A stretch of 11,846 nt of DNA from a virus (IMGVR_UViG_2579779084_000004:1-11846); one strand, 5' to 3'. Counted from the first letter of the stretch, positions 2,051-11,429 are shown. The notes: generated from the letters alone by a model not told the origin. Numbers and translations: made by a program.

Positions 2051-2206
2051 TTACTCCTCAGGTTCGTAAGCTGTGAAGACAGCGACCTCCGTCTGGCCGG
2101 TTCGGATTCGTACCTCGCAGAGGTCTTTCCTCGTTACCAGTGCCGTCACTATGACGGTTAAACAGATGACGATCAGGGCGATTAACATCGCCTTTTGCTG
2201 CTTCAT
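2051..2206 (-). CDS. hok: Hok/Gef-family type I toxin (51 aa, HokD/RelF-like membrane peptide)
   Basis: ATG at 2206 gives MKQQKAMLIALIVICLTVIVTALVTRKDLCEVRIRTGQTEVAVFTAYEPEE, which I recognise as Hok family: single TM helix plus the conserved C-terminal TGQTEVAVF motif. Confidence 0.85.
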   Translation of the reverse strand: MKQQKAMLIALIVICLTVIVTALVTRKDLCEVRIRTGQTEVAVFTAYEPEE

Positions 2207-2263
2207 AGCCTGCTTCCCCTTGCCTTTCGGCACGTAAGAGGCTAACCTACATTTGTGAGACAT
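2051..2263 (-). CDS. mok: Mok-like in-frame leader reading frame (70 aa) overlapping hok
   Basis: ATG at 2263 with GAGG 8 nt upstream; the N-terminal extension MSHKCRLASYVPKGKGKQA- is in frame with hok, as in chromosomal mokC/hokC. Confidence 0.45.
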   Translation of the reverse strand: MSHKCRLASYVPKGKGKQAMKQQKAMLIALIVICLTVIVTALVTRKDLCEVRIRTGQTEVAVFTAYEPEE

Positions 2264-2330
2264 AGATTGGGCCTCAGATTAATGTTAAGCGTCTTGCAGG
2301 ACGCGTAATGTTAACTGGGGCTTTTCTCTA
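2230..2330 (+). ncRNA. sok: Sok-like antisense RNA region (boundaries approximate)
   Basis: Inferred from hok/sok architecture: antisense to the hok leader and mok initiation region. A plus-strand TTGCCT...TAACCT promoter-like pair lies near 2219-2247. No clean terminator identified, so ends are uncertain. Confidence 0.3.
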
Positions 2331-2375
2331 TCTGCCTTTTGGTGTTCATGCCTGAGACAGATAGCCTCAAGCACC

Positions 2376-2420
2376 CGCAGTTATTCTACTTAACTAAGAT
2401 TTCCCCGCAAACCGTTTTTG
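2376..2420 (-). promoter_or_regulatory. Probable hok mRNA promoter and 5' end
   Basis: Minus strand reads TTGCGG-16 nt-TAGAAT (-10 at 2383-2388). The predicted transcript start GGGUGCUUGAGGCUAUCUG... resembles the 5' end of R1 hok mRNA as I recall it. Confidence 0.35.
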
Positions 2421-9610: not shown

Positions 9611-9850
9611 ATGCAGAAACGAGAACCCGTCATCATCGCGCCAGACTATACCGATGATGAACTTTATGAGTGGATGCACCAGAAAATTAAGGCTGCGCAG
9701 GACCTGAAATGGGCCAATGAAGCCAGGGCTAAGCAAGCTGAAAATCTGTCCGCTCTGGAGCAGGATATCACCAATCTGGAAAAAGCAGCGGCATTAAGCA
9801 TTGCCAAGAATGATTACATACCCACGTTAATGGCTAACCAACGAGGCTAA
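9611..9850 (+). CDS. Small protein, YdfC-like (79 aa)
   Basis: ATG at 9611 with GAGGAA SD 5 nt upstream; coiled-coil-like AKQAENLSALEQDITNLEKAAA. Position matches ydfC in the Qin dicB operon; length differs from what I recall, so no symbol assigned. Confidence 0.55.
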   Translation: MQKREPVIIAPDYTDDELYEWMHQKIKAAQDLKWANEARAKQAENLSALEQDITNLEKAAALSIAKNDYIPTLMANQRG

Positions 9851-9852
9851 TA

Positions 9853-10260
9853 ATGGAATTTAAAGATTTACCAAAAGAAATCCAGATAATTGCTGCAACG
9901 ACACTCGGTGATAGTCTGCTGAAAATTGACCCGGCATACACCAAAAAAGAAACCATCGATAATATGGTTCGTAATGTGCGCAATGCTTTTTCAGGGCTAT
10001 ATGGTTCTGATAATCAAAAACAGGAAAACGATATTGATGAACGGGTAATTTCTGTTTGCCTGAATGGTCATGTTATTTCAGCAATCAGAACAGAAACGGC
10101 AACTGCTTTTGATTATCTCTGCATGATTCAGAGTCTTGCTGATGTTCTGTTGAAATCAAAAGATTTAGAAAACGATGCAAATTTACAGGGGCGCACAATA
10201 GCACATCCATATGCACATACTTTAGGCTCTGTGGATATCAAAGATCCCACAAATCTTTAA
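9853..10260 (+). CDS. Hypothetical protein (135 aa), AT-rich, no recognised family
   Basis: ATG at 9853 sits 2 nt after the ydfC-like stop with GAGG 6 nt upstream, so it is co-transcribed with the early operon. Composition is markedly more AT-rich than flanking genes. Confidence 0.55.
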   Translation: MEFKDLPKEIQIIAATTLGDSLLKIDPAYTKKETIDNMVRNVRNAFSGLYGSDNQKQENDIDERVISVCLNGHVISAIRTETATAFDYLCMIQSLADVLLKSKDLENDANLQGRTIAHPYAHTLGSVDIKDPTNL

Positions 10261-10471
10261 TGAAATAGTTAACGCGAATTGTACTTGCTCTTTCAGTTGC
10301 TTTCAGAATACGCGTTGAAACTGCTGGCGGTAATTTAGTATTCCATTTATTAAAATCATGCCCGGAAAAGTACTCTTCGAAAATACTTTTAACTGCAGAC
10401 TCGCCTATTGAAATGCTGCTTACCATGCGATTTTGATAAAGGCATTTAGCAATAAGAGTTGATTTTAACAT
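10238..10471 (-). CDS. Hypothetical protein (77 aa), convergent with and overlapping the 3' end of the 135-aa gene
   Basis: ATG at 10471 preceded by AGGAGGG at 4-nt spacing; AT-rich; 23-bp 3' overlap with the plus-strand gene. No family recognised. Confidence 0.45.
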   Translation of the reverse strand: MLKSTLIAKCLYQNRMVSSISIGESAVKSIFEEYFSGHDFNKWNTKLPPAVSTRILKATERASTIRVNYFIKDLWDL

Positions 10472-10794
10472 TCACCCTCCTGAGGGTTGGTAATTAAGGA
10501 GTTCTCCACGGGTGAGGTGGAGTGCGTGCGCCGGACACGGGTGAGCATCCGGCACTGACAGTTTACTGAAAGGATATATCCCTGAAAAGTCAGGGCATAA
10601 CACGAAAGCGTACGGCGAAGGCCTTCACCTATGAGGCTTGTCGTTAAATTTAATTCGACCGTACGCTTCCGGTTGTGGCAATCCGCGAAATGGCGCGGCG
10701 GTAAGTATGGCAGGGGTACTATTCTCCCTCCCCTGTGGAGCACCGGGTTGTCAGGTTGACCATACGCTTAAGTGACAACTCCGCTGCAACAACC

Positions 10795-10857
10795 CATGCT
10801 GATTACCTTTTGGCGGGTATCCGTTTTTTGTTTTCCCTTGTGATACCCGCCCTTTTT
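10795..10857 (+). ncRNA. dicF: DicF-like small RNA (divergent variant) with intrinsic terminator
   Basis: UUUGGCGGGUAUC...GAUACCCGCCCUUUUU forms a 10-bp stem (10812-10821 with 10842-10851) plus U5 tail, resembling the K-12 DicF 3' region as I recall it. Lies about 180 nt upstream of dicB, as in Qin. Confidence 0.5.
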
Positions 10858-11040
10858 AAAGTGAATTTTGTGATGCGGTGAATGCGGCTCAGCGCACGCG
10901 GAACAGTTAAAAAGGCCAGTTGACTTCCGTATTGGTTCTTATGGGTGGGTTCTCTGTATCCGGCGTTAATTGTTAACTGGTTAACGTCACCTGGAGGCAC
11001 CAGGCGCCGCATCACAAAATTCATTGTTGAGGACGCGATA

Positions 11041-11229
11041 ATGGAAACGTTATTACCAAACGTCAATACGTCTGAAGGTTGTTTTGAAATTGGTGTCAGA
11101 ATCAGTAACCCTGTATTTACTGAAGATGCCATTAATAAGAGAAAATACGAACGGGAGCTATTAAATAAAATATGCATTCTTTCAATGCTGGCCCGTTTAC
11201 GCCCGATGCAAAAAGGATACTGGCAATGA
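11041..11229 (+). CDS. dicB: DicB cell-division inhibitor (62 aa)
   Basis: ATG at 11041 with GAGGA SD; METLLPNVNTSEGCFEIGVRISNPVFTEDAINKRKYERELLNKICILSMLARLRPMQKGYWQ is near-identical to K-12 DicB as I recall it. Confidence 0.85.
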   Translation: METLLPNVNTSEGCFEIGVRISNPVFTEDAINKRKYERELLNKICILSMLARLRPMQKGYWQ

Positions 11230-11429
11230 ATACTGCTATTGCCCTCACTCTGACTGTTTTTCTTAATACTGGCGAGCCTGTTGACATGGTTATTAACATT
11301 TACGGTTCAATGAAAGAATGCATAGCTGCCGCAGCAGAACAAAAAATTCCCGGTAACTGCTATCCGGTCGATAAAGTTATTCACATGGATAATAACGAAA
11401 TCCCGGCAGGACTTAAAACAGCGCCGTAA
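11226..11429 (+). CDS. ydfD: YdfD-like small protein (67 aa; hydrophobic N-terminus), translationally coupled to dicB
   Basis: ATG at 11226 overlaps the dicB stop (ATGA); MNTAIALTLTVFLNTGEPVDMVINIYGSMKECIAAAAEQKIPGNCYPVDKVIHMDNNEIPAGLKTAP; position as ydfD in Qin. Confidence 0.55.
   Translation: MNTAIALTLTVFLNTGEPVDMVINIYGSMKECIAAAAEQKIPGNCYPVDKVIHMDNNEIPAGLKTAP

What the first reader, a model, noticed from the sequence alone, without database searches (positions are those of the whole stretch)
10480..10800. About 320 bp with no credible ORF but dense local secondary structure and a short direct repeat, between the 77-aa gene and DicF
Several independent hairpins are visible: CCCTGA-AAAG-TCAGGG (10581-10596), GCCGGA-N13-TCCGGC (10530-10554), CAGGGG-N14-CCCCTG (10711-10736), and a 10-bp inverted repeat AAGCGTACGG/CCGTACGCTT (10606-10615 with 10659-10668). 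CACGGGTGAG occurs twice (10507 and 10537). The only ORF on the track here (10465-10743, minus) is Arg/Cys-rich and implausible. The region could be a structured precursor upstream of DicF, the 5' leader and promoter of the divergent 77-aa gene, or an independent structured RNA.
Basis: seen in the sequence. Interest (0 to 1): 0.58.

Follow-up and report, generated by a model that had tools for sequence, protein, structure and literature searches.

The report
Conserved structured RNA leader before DicF
The gene-free 320 bases are the conserved, heavily folded, non-coding stretch of a prophage early operon that precedes the DicF-type small RNA and its terminator; it is known in E. coli K-12 as an uncharacterised spacer, and part of it is a portable RNA module also found right after early promoters of phage P1 and other phages.

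Summary
All four hairpins and the 10-nt direct repeat exist (coordinates off by at most 1 nt), and both strands fold better than shuffles (z -3.5 and -3.8).

The region is not orphan sequence. It is 88% identical to the ydfC-dicF spacer of the K-12 Qin prophage, the "long untranslated region" of the dicBF operon transcript. A match occurs in 4429 of 5426 complete E. coli genomes.

It has two parts:
- A 5' domain (about 10524-10671).
- A 3' module of about 120 nt (10672-10790): a closing helix, three hairpins and a probable pseudoknot.

Covariation and a G:U excess (123 G:U against 33 A:C) place the module's fold on the + (operon) strand. The module is optional and portable. It sits within about 30 nt of the P1/P7 Pban start and in the PL leaders of cdtI, Stx2c and F1055 phages. 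In 126 of 127 loci an sRNA-like hairpin with a T-run follows it, although that hairpin's sequence varies widely.

No Rfam family matches, there is no similarity to HK022 put, and I found no paper on its function.

Best reading: a cis-acting leader of the DicF/dicB transcript. The mechanism (antitermination-like read-through, or precursor scaffold) is inferred, not shown. The window's "DicF" is a divergent variant that Rfam's DicF model does not recognise.

The parts
10472..10523 (+). Variable 5' flank, containing hairpin 1 (CTCCAC 10504-09 / GTGGAG 10517-22), the first CACGGGTGAG copy (10507-16) and the complement of the 77-aa gene's ribosome-binding site. It is a mosaic junction, not part of the conserved core.
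   Evidence: Other lineages have unrelated sequence or an unrelated hairpin here (A4). Hairpin 1 is paired in only 69% of cells. Column conservation rises only from about 10500.
10524..10671 (+). 5' domain core. It contains hairpin 2 (10530-35/10548-53); a conserved stretch predicted unpaired, ACTGACAGTTTACTGAAAGG (10554-10573), within 10554-10579; hairpin 3 (10580-85/10590-95); the CATAAC motif (10596-10601); and long hairpin 4 (CG 10603-04, AAGCGTACGG 10606-15 and CGA 10616-18 pairing with TCG 10655-57, CCGTACGCTT 10659-68 and CG 10670-71) with a hypervariable tip.
   Evidence: It is 88% identical to the K-12 spacer. On A4, 91.7% of cells are paired against 24-39% in slid controls, and 4 pairs show compensatory change. 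The diverged 'type-2' version keeps hairpins 3 and 4 through changes on both sides.
10672..10790 (+). Portable 3' module. It consists of closing helix P1 (GTTGTGGC 10672-79 / GCTGCAAC 10783-90); hairpin A (10683-87/10694-98); the junction GGCGGTAAG; a candidate pseudoknot (GTATGG 10705-10 / CCATAC 10760-65); variable hairpin B (10711-16/10730-35); and hairpin C (GGGTTGTCA 10745-53 / TGACAACTC 10773-81) with a conserved 19-nt loop.
   Evidence: Model R1 found 70 matches, 68 of them distinct. 96.1% of cells are paired, 7 pairs show compensatory change, and 0-1 of 500 shuffles reach the observed values. G:U cells number 123 against 33 A:C. Pseudoknot pair 42:102 reads UA 63, CG 3, UG 2. The module is also present in P1/P7, cdtI, Stx2c and F1055 phages.
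10596..10677 (+). Alternative 'extended hairpin 4'. CATAAC (10596-601) pairs with GTTGTG (10672-77), the same strand that forms the 5' arm of P1, so the two helices exclude each other.
   Evidence: Mean base-pair probability is 0.81-0.97 for the extension against 0.00-0.10 for P1 whenever the 5' domain is present. P1 forms in the cdtI context, which lacks the 5' domain. The extension is conserved but barely covaries.
10791..10857 (+). Spacer plus DicF-slot small RNA and intrinsic terminator (GGCGGGTATC 10812-21 / GATACCCGCC 10842-51, T5 at 10853-57). This is a divergent DicF-like variant.
   Evidence: It aligns in position with K-12 DicF, but the sequence differs. Rfam DicF does not hit it at E<=10, whereas K-12 and M15 score 76.7 bits. 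A hairpin with a T-run follows the module in 126 of 127 loci, in at least 7 sequence types.
10864..11021 (+). Downstream structured spacer closed by a 15-bp long-range helix (AATTTTGTGATGCGG 10864-78 / CCGCATCACAAAATT 11007-21), just before dicB (11042).
   Evidence: The helix is read directly from the sequence. The region gives a partial Rfam STnc100 match of 28.5 bits, below the gathering score of 47. Its position fits the reported RNase III cut that yields the 72-nt DicF (PMC5069750); that link is my inference.

Best explanation
The stretch is the conserved non-coding leader of the DicF/dicB part of a repressor-controlled early-left operon in an N-less lambdoid (Qin-type) prophage. It is transcribed on the + strand as part of the polycistronic message. 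It folds into two RNA domains: a 5' domain built around a long hairpin, and a ~120-nt four-helix, probably pseudoknotted module.

It most likely acts in cis on the fate of that transcript at the DicF-type terminator and processing site that directly follows it. My preferred mechanism is that the folded module modifies or assists the elongating RNA polymerase. A useful fraction of transcripts would then pass the DicF terminator and reach dicB, exo, xis and int, or ban in P1. That would be a put/EAR-like antitermination role. The same RNA also forms the structured 5' flank of the DicF precursor.

What is shown: homology to the K-12 spacer, conservation, the + strand fold of the module, portability, and the constant arrangement module then terminator then operon genes.

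What is inferred: any effect on polymerase, termination or processing.

Confidence in the identity (cis-encoded structured leader of the DicF precursor) is about 0.85. Confidence that it controls transcript fate at the terminator or processing site is about 0.5. Confidence in antitermination specifically is about 0.3. The single confidence number given for this explanation (0.5) refers to the middle claim.
For: Identity and distribution:
- 88% identity to K-12 L002 1501-1804, which lies between ydfC and the Rfam DicF hit at 1822-1873.
- The literature says this untranslated region is part of the polycistronic dicBF transcript, that RNase E makes the DicF 5' end, and that both terminated and read-through, RNase III-processed products exist (PMC5069750, PMC9438474, PMC6582626).
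- A match occurs in 4429 of 5426 E. coli genomes.

Module structure:
- 96.1% of cells paired, 7 compensatory pairs, and slid controls at 37-63%.
- G:U 123 against A:C 33.

Architecture:
- In P1 the module starts about 25-35 nt after the C1-controlled Pban start. An 8-bp stem with T6 follows it, ahead of the tRNAs, tciABC and ban.
- In cdtI, Stx2c and F1055 phages it lies about 275 nt after an 11/12 PL promoter, before a terminator and the first ORF, with no N ORF.
- A hairpin with a T-run lies within 150 nt after hairpin C in 126 of 127 loci, while that small-RNA slot exists in at least 7 unrelated sequence types. The conserved partner is therefore not the small RNA.
- None of the 99 loci carrying the 5' domain and the module gave a tblastn N hit, and none of the annotated operons I inspected carries an N gene.
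Against: - There is no experimental or transcript data for this window.
- The module is absent from 30 of 129 DicF-motif loci. That includes 27 'type-2' loci that also lack N, so it is not a required substitute for N.
- There is only one copy per phage, with no PR-side counterpart as HK022 has.
- It shows no sequence or covariance-model similarity to the HK022 immunity region that holds the put sites.
- Partial read-through of the K-12 DicF terminator is already reported, so no special device is strictly needed.
- Thermodynamically the closing helix P1 loses to the extended hairpin 4 whenever the 5' domain is present, so the module's full fold in this window is uncertain.
- Covariation for the 5' domain is weak, and its G:U 18 against A:C 13 does not settle the strand.
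- All homologs come from a narrow group of E. coli and Salmonella phages, so many of the substitution counts are few events inherited by many sequences.
Confidence: 0.5

Rival explanations
1. Precursor scaffold and stability element. The folded RNA has no effect on polymerase. It insulates the DicF-slot RNA so that the slot folds independently of upstream sequence. It also positions RNase E or RNase III cuts, with the ~21-bp extended hairpin 4 as a possible RNase III site. After cleavage it caps the 3' end of the upstream ydfABC message. Finally, it keeps Rho off a 570-nt untranslated stretch.
For: DicF is known to be cut out of this transcript by RNase E and RNase III. The module always sits 5-35 nt upstream of the small-RNA hairpin. 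In K-12 the spacer pairs with the DicF 5' end around the cleavage site (GUUAUCA/UGGUGAC). The extended hairpin 4 is long, conserved and highly probable. A second long-range helix lies 3' of DicF.
Against: Insulation, Rho shielding or 3' capping would need structure only. They would not need the near-invariant loop and junction sequences (GGCGGTAAG, AGGTTGACCATRCGC) or a pseudoknot. DicF-type RNAs exist without the module in 23% of loci. A plasmid-borne dicF without flanks makes functional DicF (PMC6582626).
Confidence: 0.3
2. Body of a larger functional RNA. The module together with the DicF-slot hairpin would be one RNA of about 190 nt, as in the P1 Pban-to-terminator transcript. Its conserved fold would bind a host protein or RNA in trans, and the 53-nt DicF would be only its processed tail.
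For: In P1 the promoter, module and terminator form a compact unit of about 190 nt. Loops and junctions are conserved. No phage protein is consistently adjacent across the P1, Qin-type, cdtI and F1055 contexts.
Against: In Qin-type operons there is no promoter-like site directly upstream on the + strand. No matching Rfam family or reported stable RNA was found.
Confidence: 0.15
3. Ligand-sensing attenuator (riboswitch-like). The four-helix junction would bind a small molecule and switch between the extended hairpin 4 and P1, so setting termination at the DicF-slot terminator.
For: The features resemble an aptamer: a closing helix next to a terminator, conserved junction bases and a pseudoknot. 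There are two mutually exclusive conserved helices that share GTTGTG.
Against: I found no antiterminator pairing with any of the at least 7 unrelated terminator types (reading). No known riboswitch class matches. The module also works in contexts that lack the competing 5' strand (cdtI, P1).
Confidence: 0.07
4. DNA-level role for the divergent gene. The first ~100 nt would carry the promoter and 5' UTR of the minus-strand 77-aa gene, and the apparent RNA structure there would be incidental.
For: At least 10 unrelated minus-strand small-ORF families start 51-91 nt upstream of the hairpin 2 anchor, in 28 of 67 type-1 loci, so any promoter must lie inside the element or beyond it. A candidate TTTTCA (10588-83) - 17 nt - TAAACT (10565-60) has nearly invariant hexamers and keeps a 17-18 nt spacing in divergent variants (reading).
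Against: The candidate promoter matches only 8 of 12 positions, and the promoter scan did not report it. The element is equally conserved where + strand ydfC abuts it, as in K-12 and 36 of 67 loci. This role cannot account for 10600-10800, nor for the + strand G:U pattern of the module.
Confidence: 0.2
5. Degraded coding remnant, or a recombination linker with no RNA function.
For: The region lies at a mosaic junction of lambdoid prophages, and a 92-aa ORF can be drawn on the minus strand.
Against: The ORF has no family. Compensatory changes keep the helices intact. The module moves as a unit between unrelated phages at 76-84% identity with its pairing maintained.
Confidence: 0.03

Closest known systems
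The ydfC-dicF untranslated spacer of the dicBF operon, Qin prophage, E. coli K-12
   Same: Direct homolog: 87.8% identity over window 10485-10790, in the same position between the promoter-proximal small genes and the DicF slot, followed by dicB and a DUF1482 gene (ydfD in K-12). It is known to be part of the polycistronic precursor that RNase E and RNase III process.
   Different: In this window a 135-aa gene and a divergent 77-aa gene are inserted between ydfC and the element. Hairpin B, the tip of hairpin 4 and the whole DicF slot differ. I found no paper describing a structure or function for the K-12 spacer.
The 'dicF-like region' in the Pban leader of phages P1 and P7
   Same: It shares the 3' module (76-80% identity, 91.6-95.1 bits with model R1), followed by an intrinsic terminator, on the sense strand of a repressor-controlled early operon.
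   Different: It has no 5' domain. The module starts within about 30 nt of the transcription start. The closing helix and the small-RNA slot have different sequences, and the downstream genes are tRNAs, tciABC and ban.
HK022 putL/putR processive antiterminator RNAs
   Same: They are cis-acting folded RNAs just downstream of early promoters, in a lambdoid phage that does not use N-type antitermination. They sit upstream of terminators and act without a phage protein (PMC9378689). The element here has the same position in the operon and the same logical need.
   Different: put is about 70 nt with two stem-loops and occurs at two sites per phage. Here the module is about 120 nt, with four helices and a pseudoknot, at one site per phage. 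There is no sequence or covariance-model similarity. No functional data exist for this element.
EAR (Bacillus eps operon) and canT (Tn916) antitermination RNAs
   Same: They are structured RNAs inside operons or leaders that let polymerase pass downstream terminators. This matches the mid-operon position seen in Qin-type prophages. (EAR is from my own knowledge; the Tn916 paper, PMC11658703, appears, but I did not read it.)
   Different: They are unrelated in sequence and host range. Nothing here has been tested.
Lambda nut sites (boxA + boxB with N)
   Same: Same position in the early-left operon. Hairpin 3 (CCCTGAAAAGTCAGGG) superficially resembles boxB (GCCCTGAAAAAGGGC, from memory).
   Different: There is no N gene in these operons. 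No conserved boxA is present: only a GTGCTCTC(TT/AG)C motif in the cdtI and F1055 leaders. Hairpin 3 covaries as a plain stem and is replaced in type-2 loci.

Membership tests
K-12 dicBF operon ydfC-dicF spacer (sequence homologs) | Nucleotide homology and the same position between the ydfABC-type genes and the DicF slot, upstream of dicB | tested here: met
   87.8% identity over 304 nt to BW25113 1643319-1643622. The annotation shows ydfC, the match, the DicF hit and dicB in that order, and the alignment is A1.
Rfam DicF (RF00039) | A covariance-model score at or above the gathering score of 48 bits | tested here: not met
   No DicF hit in window 10200-11100 even at E<=10, whereas K-12 and M15 loci score 76.7 bits. 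Neither the finding region nor the window's DicF slot is a member under Rfam's model.
Any Rfam 15 family (riboswitches, ribozymes, C4, isrK, tRNA-like and others) | A match at the gathering score, or a credible E-value | tested here: not met
   The only gathering-level hit in the window is sok at 2201-2376. In 10200-11100 the only hit below E=1 is a partial STnc100 match at 10864-11018 (28.5 bits, below 47). Nothing falls on the homologous elements in six other loci. ARAGORN finds no tRNA or tmRNA.
HK022 put antiterminator RNA | Sequence or structure similarity to putL/putR (about 70 nt, two stem-loops) | tested here: not met
   blastn with word size 7 finds nothing against HK022 24000-31000. 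Model R1 with filters off scores at best 9.3 bits, E 0.48. I did not have the put sequences themselves.
HK022 put antiterminator RNA | Located on the sense strand downstream of an early promoter and upstream of terminators, in a phage that does not use N-type antitermination | tested here: met
   P1; cdtI, Stx2c and F1055 phages; Qin-type operons.
HK022 put antiterminator RNA | Suppresses pausing and termination by binding the RNA polymerase beta' zinc-binding domain | not testable with these tools
   This needs in vitro transcription and rpoC mutants.
Lambda-type nut site | A boxA consensus plus a boxB hairpin, and a cognate N protein encoded at the start of the operon | tested here: not met
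   None of the 99 loci carrying the 5' domain and the module gave a tblastn N hit. None of the annotated operons I inspected has an N gene, and the ORF lists show none. No conserved boxA appears in A3 or A4.
Transcription-attenuating riboswitch | A conserved aptamer whose closing helix competes with an antiterminator or terminator pairing | tested here: inconclusive
   The fold is aptamer-like and there are two exclusive helices. However, I saw no complementarity to the terminator arms in any of the slot types. A ligand cannot be tested here.
Rfam STnc100 (for the stretch 3' of the DicF slot) | A score at or above the gathering score of 47 bits | tested here: not met
   28.5 bits, E 4e-4, model positions 21-154 of 206. 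This is a partial relative only.

The most novel reading that the evidence does not exclude
The ~120-nt four-helix, pseudoknotted module (10672-10790) would be a new class of protein-independent processive antiterminator RNA, unrelated in sequence to HK022 put. N-less lambdoid prophages of E. coli and Salmonella, and phage P1/P7, would use it to carry early transcription through the DicF-type terminator into the cell-division inhibitor, recombination, excision or ban genes. The competing extended hairpin 4 would gate its folding.
Probability: 0.2. Interest if true: 0.8.

Novelty: new member of a known kind. Interest (0 to 1): 0.5.

Why it matters
DicF is one of the oldest known bacterial small RNAs. 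The dicBF operon affects cell division, metabolism, phage resistance and EHEC virulence. Yet the ~300 nt upstream of DicF are better conserved than DicF itself, occur in about 80% of complete E. coli genomes, and have no described structure or role.

Showing that part of this stretch is a portable RNA module shared with the P1 ban leader and with the PL leaders of N-less phages gives a concrete, testable handle on two questions. First, how do these phages get early transcription past a built-in terminator? Second, how is the balance set between the terminated small RNA and the read-through dicB message?

If the module only scaffolds processing, the result is a useful annotation: a new RNA family for Rfam, and a warning that Rfam's DicF model misses several DicF-slot variants.

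Tried and rejected
- Rfam, at gathering score and at E<=10, on the window and on six related loci: nothing on the element.
- ARAGORN: no tRNA-like gene.
- HK022 put: no similarity by blastn or by model R1. A search for the put sites through inverted repeats in HK022 gave nothing usable, and the cryo-EM paper's text does not hold the sequence.
- The idea that the module replaces N: rejected as a rule. 27 module-less type-2 loci also lack N, although 2 of the 3 module-less type-1 loci do carry an N-like gene.
- Small ORFs: the SD-like TAAGGAG at 10496-10502 has no start codon at a usable distance, and that stretch is replaced in other lineages. The + strand ORFs 10631-10759 and 10638-10775 start in the hypervariable tip of hairpin 4.
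- boxA: only a partial GTGCTCTC motif in the cdtI and F1055 leaders.
- The single genome-contig scan used too loose a pattern (18 specified bases). It returned almost only chance hits; only E. albertii and E. ruysiae were real.
- Phage D6, a P1 relative, keeps the terminator but has no significant module (10.4 bits, E 0.21).
- Literature: eight searches and several papers gave nothing on the spacer's function. Faubladier & Bouché 1994, Lobocka 2004, Murashko 2017 and Melson 2019 are not held.
- Simple promoter scan: no site inside 10472-10800 on either strand.

Full report
**Context.** The window is an exact match to a lambdoid prophage inserted next to potC in E. coli ATCC 43886. On the + strand lies a repressor-controlled early-left operon, in this order:
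- an HTH repressor;
- DUF1391 (ydfA-like), ydfB and ydfC (9612-9830);
- a 135-aa gene (9853-10260);
- a divergent 77-aa gene on the minus strand (10238-10471);
- 570 nt with no annotated gene;
- dicB (11042-11230), a DUF1482 gene, an exonuclease, xis and int.

No N-type antiterminator is annotated in this operon.

**The observation.** The direct repeat CACGGGTGAG is at 10507 and 10536, where chance would give 0.01 copies. The 329-nt stretch folds better than dinucleotide shuffles on both strands (z -3.49 and -3.76). The 92-aa minus-strand ORF has no Pfam or PHROG relative. The flanking 77-aa and 135-aa genes belong to phage families of unknown function.

**What it is homologous to.** The stretch is not peculiar to this prophage. 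Window 10485-10790 is 87.8% identical to the DNA between ydfC and DicF in the K-12 Qin prophage. A match occurs in 4429 of 5426 complete E. coli genomes, with a median of two copies. [quoted passage not shown] RNase E makes the 5' end of DicF. Intrinsic termination gives the 53-nt form, and RNase III cutting of read-through RNA gives the 72-nt form (PMC5069750, PMC9438474, PMC6582626). I found no paper that assigns a structure or a function to the ~300 nt upstream of DicF. Rfam 15 has nothing on it, in the window or in related loci.

**Anatomy.** Comparing about 130 related loci from viral contigs, phage records and E. coli genomes shows that the element is modular.
- 10472-10523 is a mosaic flank. 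Hairpin 1 and the first repeat copy are replaced by unrelated sequence or by an unrelated hairpin in other lineages. In two lineages the 29 nt between the two repeat copies are deleted. The repeat is therefore real but lineage-specific.
- The conserved core starts near 10524. The 5' domain runs from 10524 to 10671. It holds hairpin 2, a conserved stretch predicted to be unpaired, hairpin 3, a CAYAAC motif and long hairpin 4 with a hypervariable tip.
- The 3' module runs from 10672 to 10790. It consists of closing helix P1, hairpin A, the junction GGCGGTAAG, variable hairpin B, and hairpin C with a conserved 19-nt loop.

**Support for the 3' module's structure.** I built a covariance model from 25 diverse copies. 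It recovered 70 copies, 68 of them distinct.
- 96.1% of cells are standard pairs, against 37-63% when partners are slid by 1-3 columns.
- Seven pairs show changes on both sides.
- Only 0-1 of 500 shuffles reach the observed values.
- Hairpin B keeps its stem through at least five different sequences.
- G:U cells outnumber A:C cells 123 to 33, so the fold belongs to the + strand, which is the sense strand of the operon.
- GTATGG (10705-10) can pair with CCATAC (10760-65) in the loop of hairpin C. That would be a pseudoknot. One position reads U:A in 63 sequences, C:G in 3 and U:G in 2. This is thin support, because my search pattern fixed part of that segment.

**Support for the 5' domain's structure.** The evidence here is weaker. 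91.7% of cells are paired, four pairs show compensatory change, and G:U 18 against A:C 13 gives no clear strand signal. A diverged "type-2" version does keep hairpins 3 and 4 through changes on both sides. All of these counts come from a narrow group of E. coli and Salmonella phages, so they represent few independent events.

**Two helices compete for one strand.** GTTGTG (10672-77) can pair with the upstream CATAAC, which extends hairpin 4 to about 21 bp. It can also pair with the downstream GCTGCAAC, which closes the module. In this window and in K-12, base-pair probabilities favour the extension (0.81-0.97 against 0.00-0.10). P1 forms where the 5' domain is absent, as in cdtI. Both pairings are conserved. 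The shared strand is nearly invariant while its P1 partner varies between wobble and Watson-Crick pairs. This may be a switch, or it may be a by-product of mosaic joining at a short shared sequence. I cannot decide between these.

**The module is portable and optional.**
- In P1 and P7 it begins within about 30 nt of the start of the C1-controlled Pban promoter. An 8-bp stem with T6 follows it, ahead of the tRNA genes, tciABC and ban. The P1 record annotates part of it as a "dicF-like region".
- In cdtI, Stx2c-converting phages and Salmonella phage F1055 it lies about 275 nt downstream of an 11/12 PL promoter that follows cI. It comes before a terminator-like hairpin and the first ORF, with no N ORF between.
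- Among 129 loci that share the conserved motif 3' of the DicF slot, 99 have the 5' domain and the module. Three have the 5' domain only, with P1 capped by a five-base loop. Twenty-seven have the type-2 5' domain and no module.
- Wherever the module occurs, a hairpin with a T-run follows within 150 nt (126 of 127 loci). That small-RNA slot exists in at least seven unrelated sequence types.
- The window carries one of the rarer slot types. It is positionally equivalent to DicF, but Rfam's DicF model does not detect it.

**Inference on function.** The constant arrangement is: early promoter, then folded conserved RNA, then a variable intrinsic terminator, then the operon's genes. It recurs in three phage groups that lack N. 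No phage protein is consistently adjacent. This points to a cis-acting role involving a host factor at the terminator or processing site. I rank two mechanisms about equally.

*(a) Antitermination-like read-through, as with HK022 put, Bacillus EAR or Tn916 canT.* This explains the position, the conserved tertiary-looking fold and the indifference to terminator sequence. The following points count against it:
- the module is missing from a quarter of DicF loci, including N-less ones;
- there is one copy per phage;
- it has no similarity to put;
- the K-12 terminator is already known to be leaky.

*(b) A precursor scaffold.* It would insulate the small-RNA slot, present RNase sites (the extended hairpin 4 is long enough for RNase III), cap the upstream message and keep Rho off a long untranslated stretch. 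This fits the known processing, but it does not explain the sequence-level conservation of loops and junctions.

A larger trans-acting RNA, or a ligand-sensing attenuator, remains possible but has less support. I saw no antiterminator pairing with any terminator type.

**The divergent gene.** The 77-aa gene is one of at least ten unrelated small minus-strand genes whose start codons lie 51-91 nt upstream of the hairpin 2 anchor in different prophages. There is no room for a promoter between them and the conserved core, so their promoter should lie inside the element or beyond it. A conserved but weak candidate (8 of 12 matches) is TTTTCA (10588-83) - 17 nt - TAAACT (10565-60). It overlaps the stretch that is predicted to be unpaired in the RNA. 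This could give the first ~100 nt a second, DNA-level role. It cannot explain the conservation of the whole element, which is the same where + strand ydfC abuts it.

**Verdict.** The feature is real and non-coding. It is the structured leader of the DicF/dicB transcript. The region is known in K-12, but its structure and function are uncharacterised. The new points are its two-domain architecture, the portable pseudoknotted module shared with P1 and with N-less lambdoid PL leaders, and the competing helices. Its function remains to be tested.

Noticed in passing
Rfam DicF does not hit it even at E<=10, whereas K-12 DicF scores 76.7 bits. Across related loci the slot has at least 7 unrelated sequence types, so its targets may differ from those of K-12 DicF.
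   Followed up: partly
window 10864-11021: A 15-bp long-range helix (10864-78 with 11007-21) closes a structured spacer between the DicF slot and dicB. The region gives a partial Rfam STnc100 match (28.5 bits, below the gathering score of 47). Its position fits the RNase III cut reported to give the 72-nt DicF.
   Followed up: partly
window 10238-10523 and related loci (L003, L247, L266, L274, L275, L098, L093, L025 and others): The 5' edge of the element is a hot spot for divergently oriented small genes. At least 10 unrelated families (59-169 aa) start 51-91 nt upstream of the hairpin 2 anchor. The window's 77-aa gene is phrog_10348 and the neighbouring 135-aa gene is phrog_1363; both have unknown function.
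   Followed up: partly
window 10560-10588, minus strand: Candidate shared promoter for those divergent genes: TTTTCA (10588-83), 17 nt, TAAACT (10565-60). Only 8 of 12 positions match, but both hexamers are nearly invariant and the 17-18 nt spacing is kept in divergent variants (L036, L247).
   Followed up: no
L251, L255-L285 (type-2 loci), about 200 nt upstream of their DicF slot: The diverged 5' domain contains a candidate H-type pseudoknot: ACCACC-GAAG-CCCGG-A-GGTGGT-GAAATAAAA-CCGGG, with an A-rich third loop. A second variant (GCCTG...CAGGC) keeps both stems.
   Followed up: no
window 11038-11066, minus strand: A promoter-like site TTGACG-17-CATTAT (9 of 12 matches) lies inside the start of dicB. 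It points back across the DicF slot and the element, and would give an antisense transcript.
   Followed up: no
window 2201-2376, minus strand: A full-length sok antitoxin RNA (120.1 bits) lies next to the gene annotated as hokD in the source genome.
   Followed up: no
L007 and L283 (viral contigs), position equivalent to window 10507-10545: The 29 nt between the two CACGGGTGAG copies are deleted, as recombination between the repeats would produce. This removes hairpin 1 and the 5' arm of hairpin 2.
   Followed up: partly
L005 2640-2790 and L248 2700-2800 (cdtI and F1055 phages): A second long hairpin (a 13-bp stem ACAGAGAAGAGCA/TGTTCTTCTCTGT with about 55 nt of loop, then TTTT) lies between the DicF-like terminator and the first ORF of the PL operon. 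Two terminator-like structures therefore stand in tandem.
   Followed up: no
PP818812.1 6143-6262 (phages collection): A record named Actinobacillus phage vB_Apl-pPE4 holds a 92.5% identical copy of the 3' module. This is an unexpected host for an element otherwise confined to E. coli and Salmonella phages.
   Followed up: no
L005 40-228, minus strand: Phage cdtI carries Rfam C4 antisense RNA (68.4 bits) and isrK (60 bits) side by side next to its antirepressor gene.
   Followed up: no
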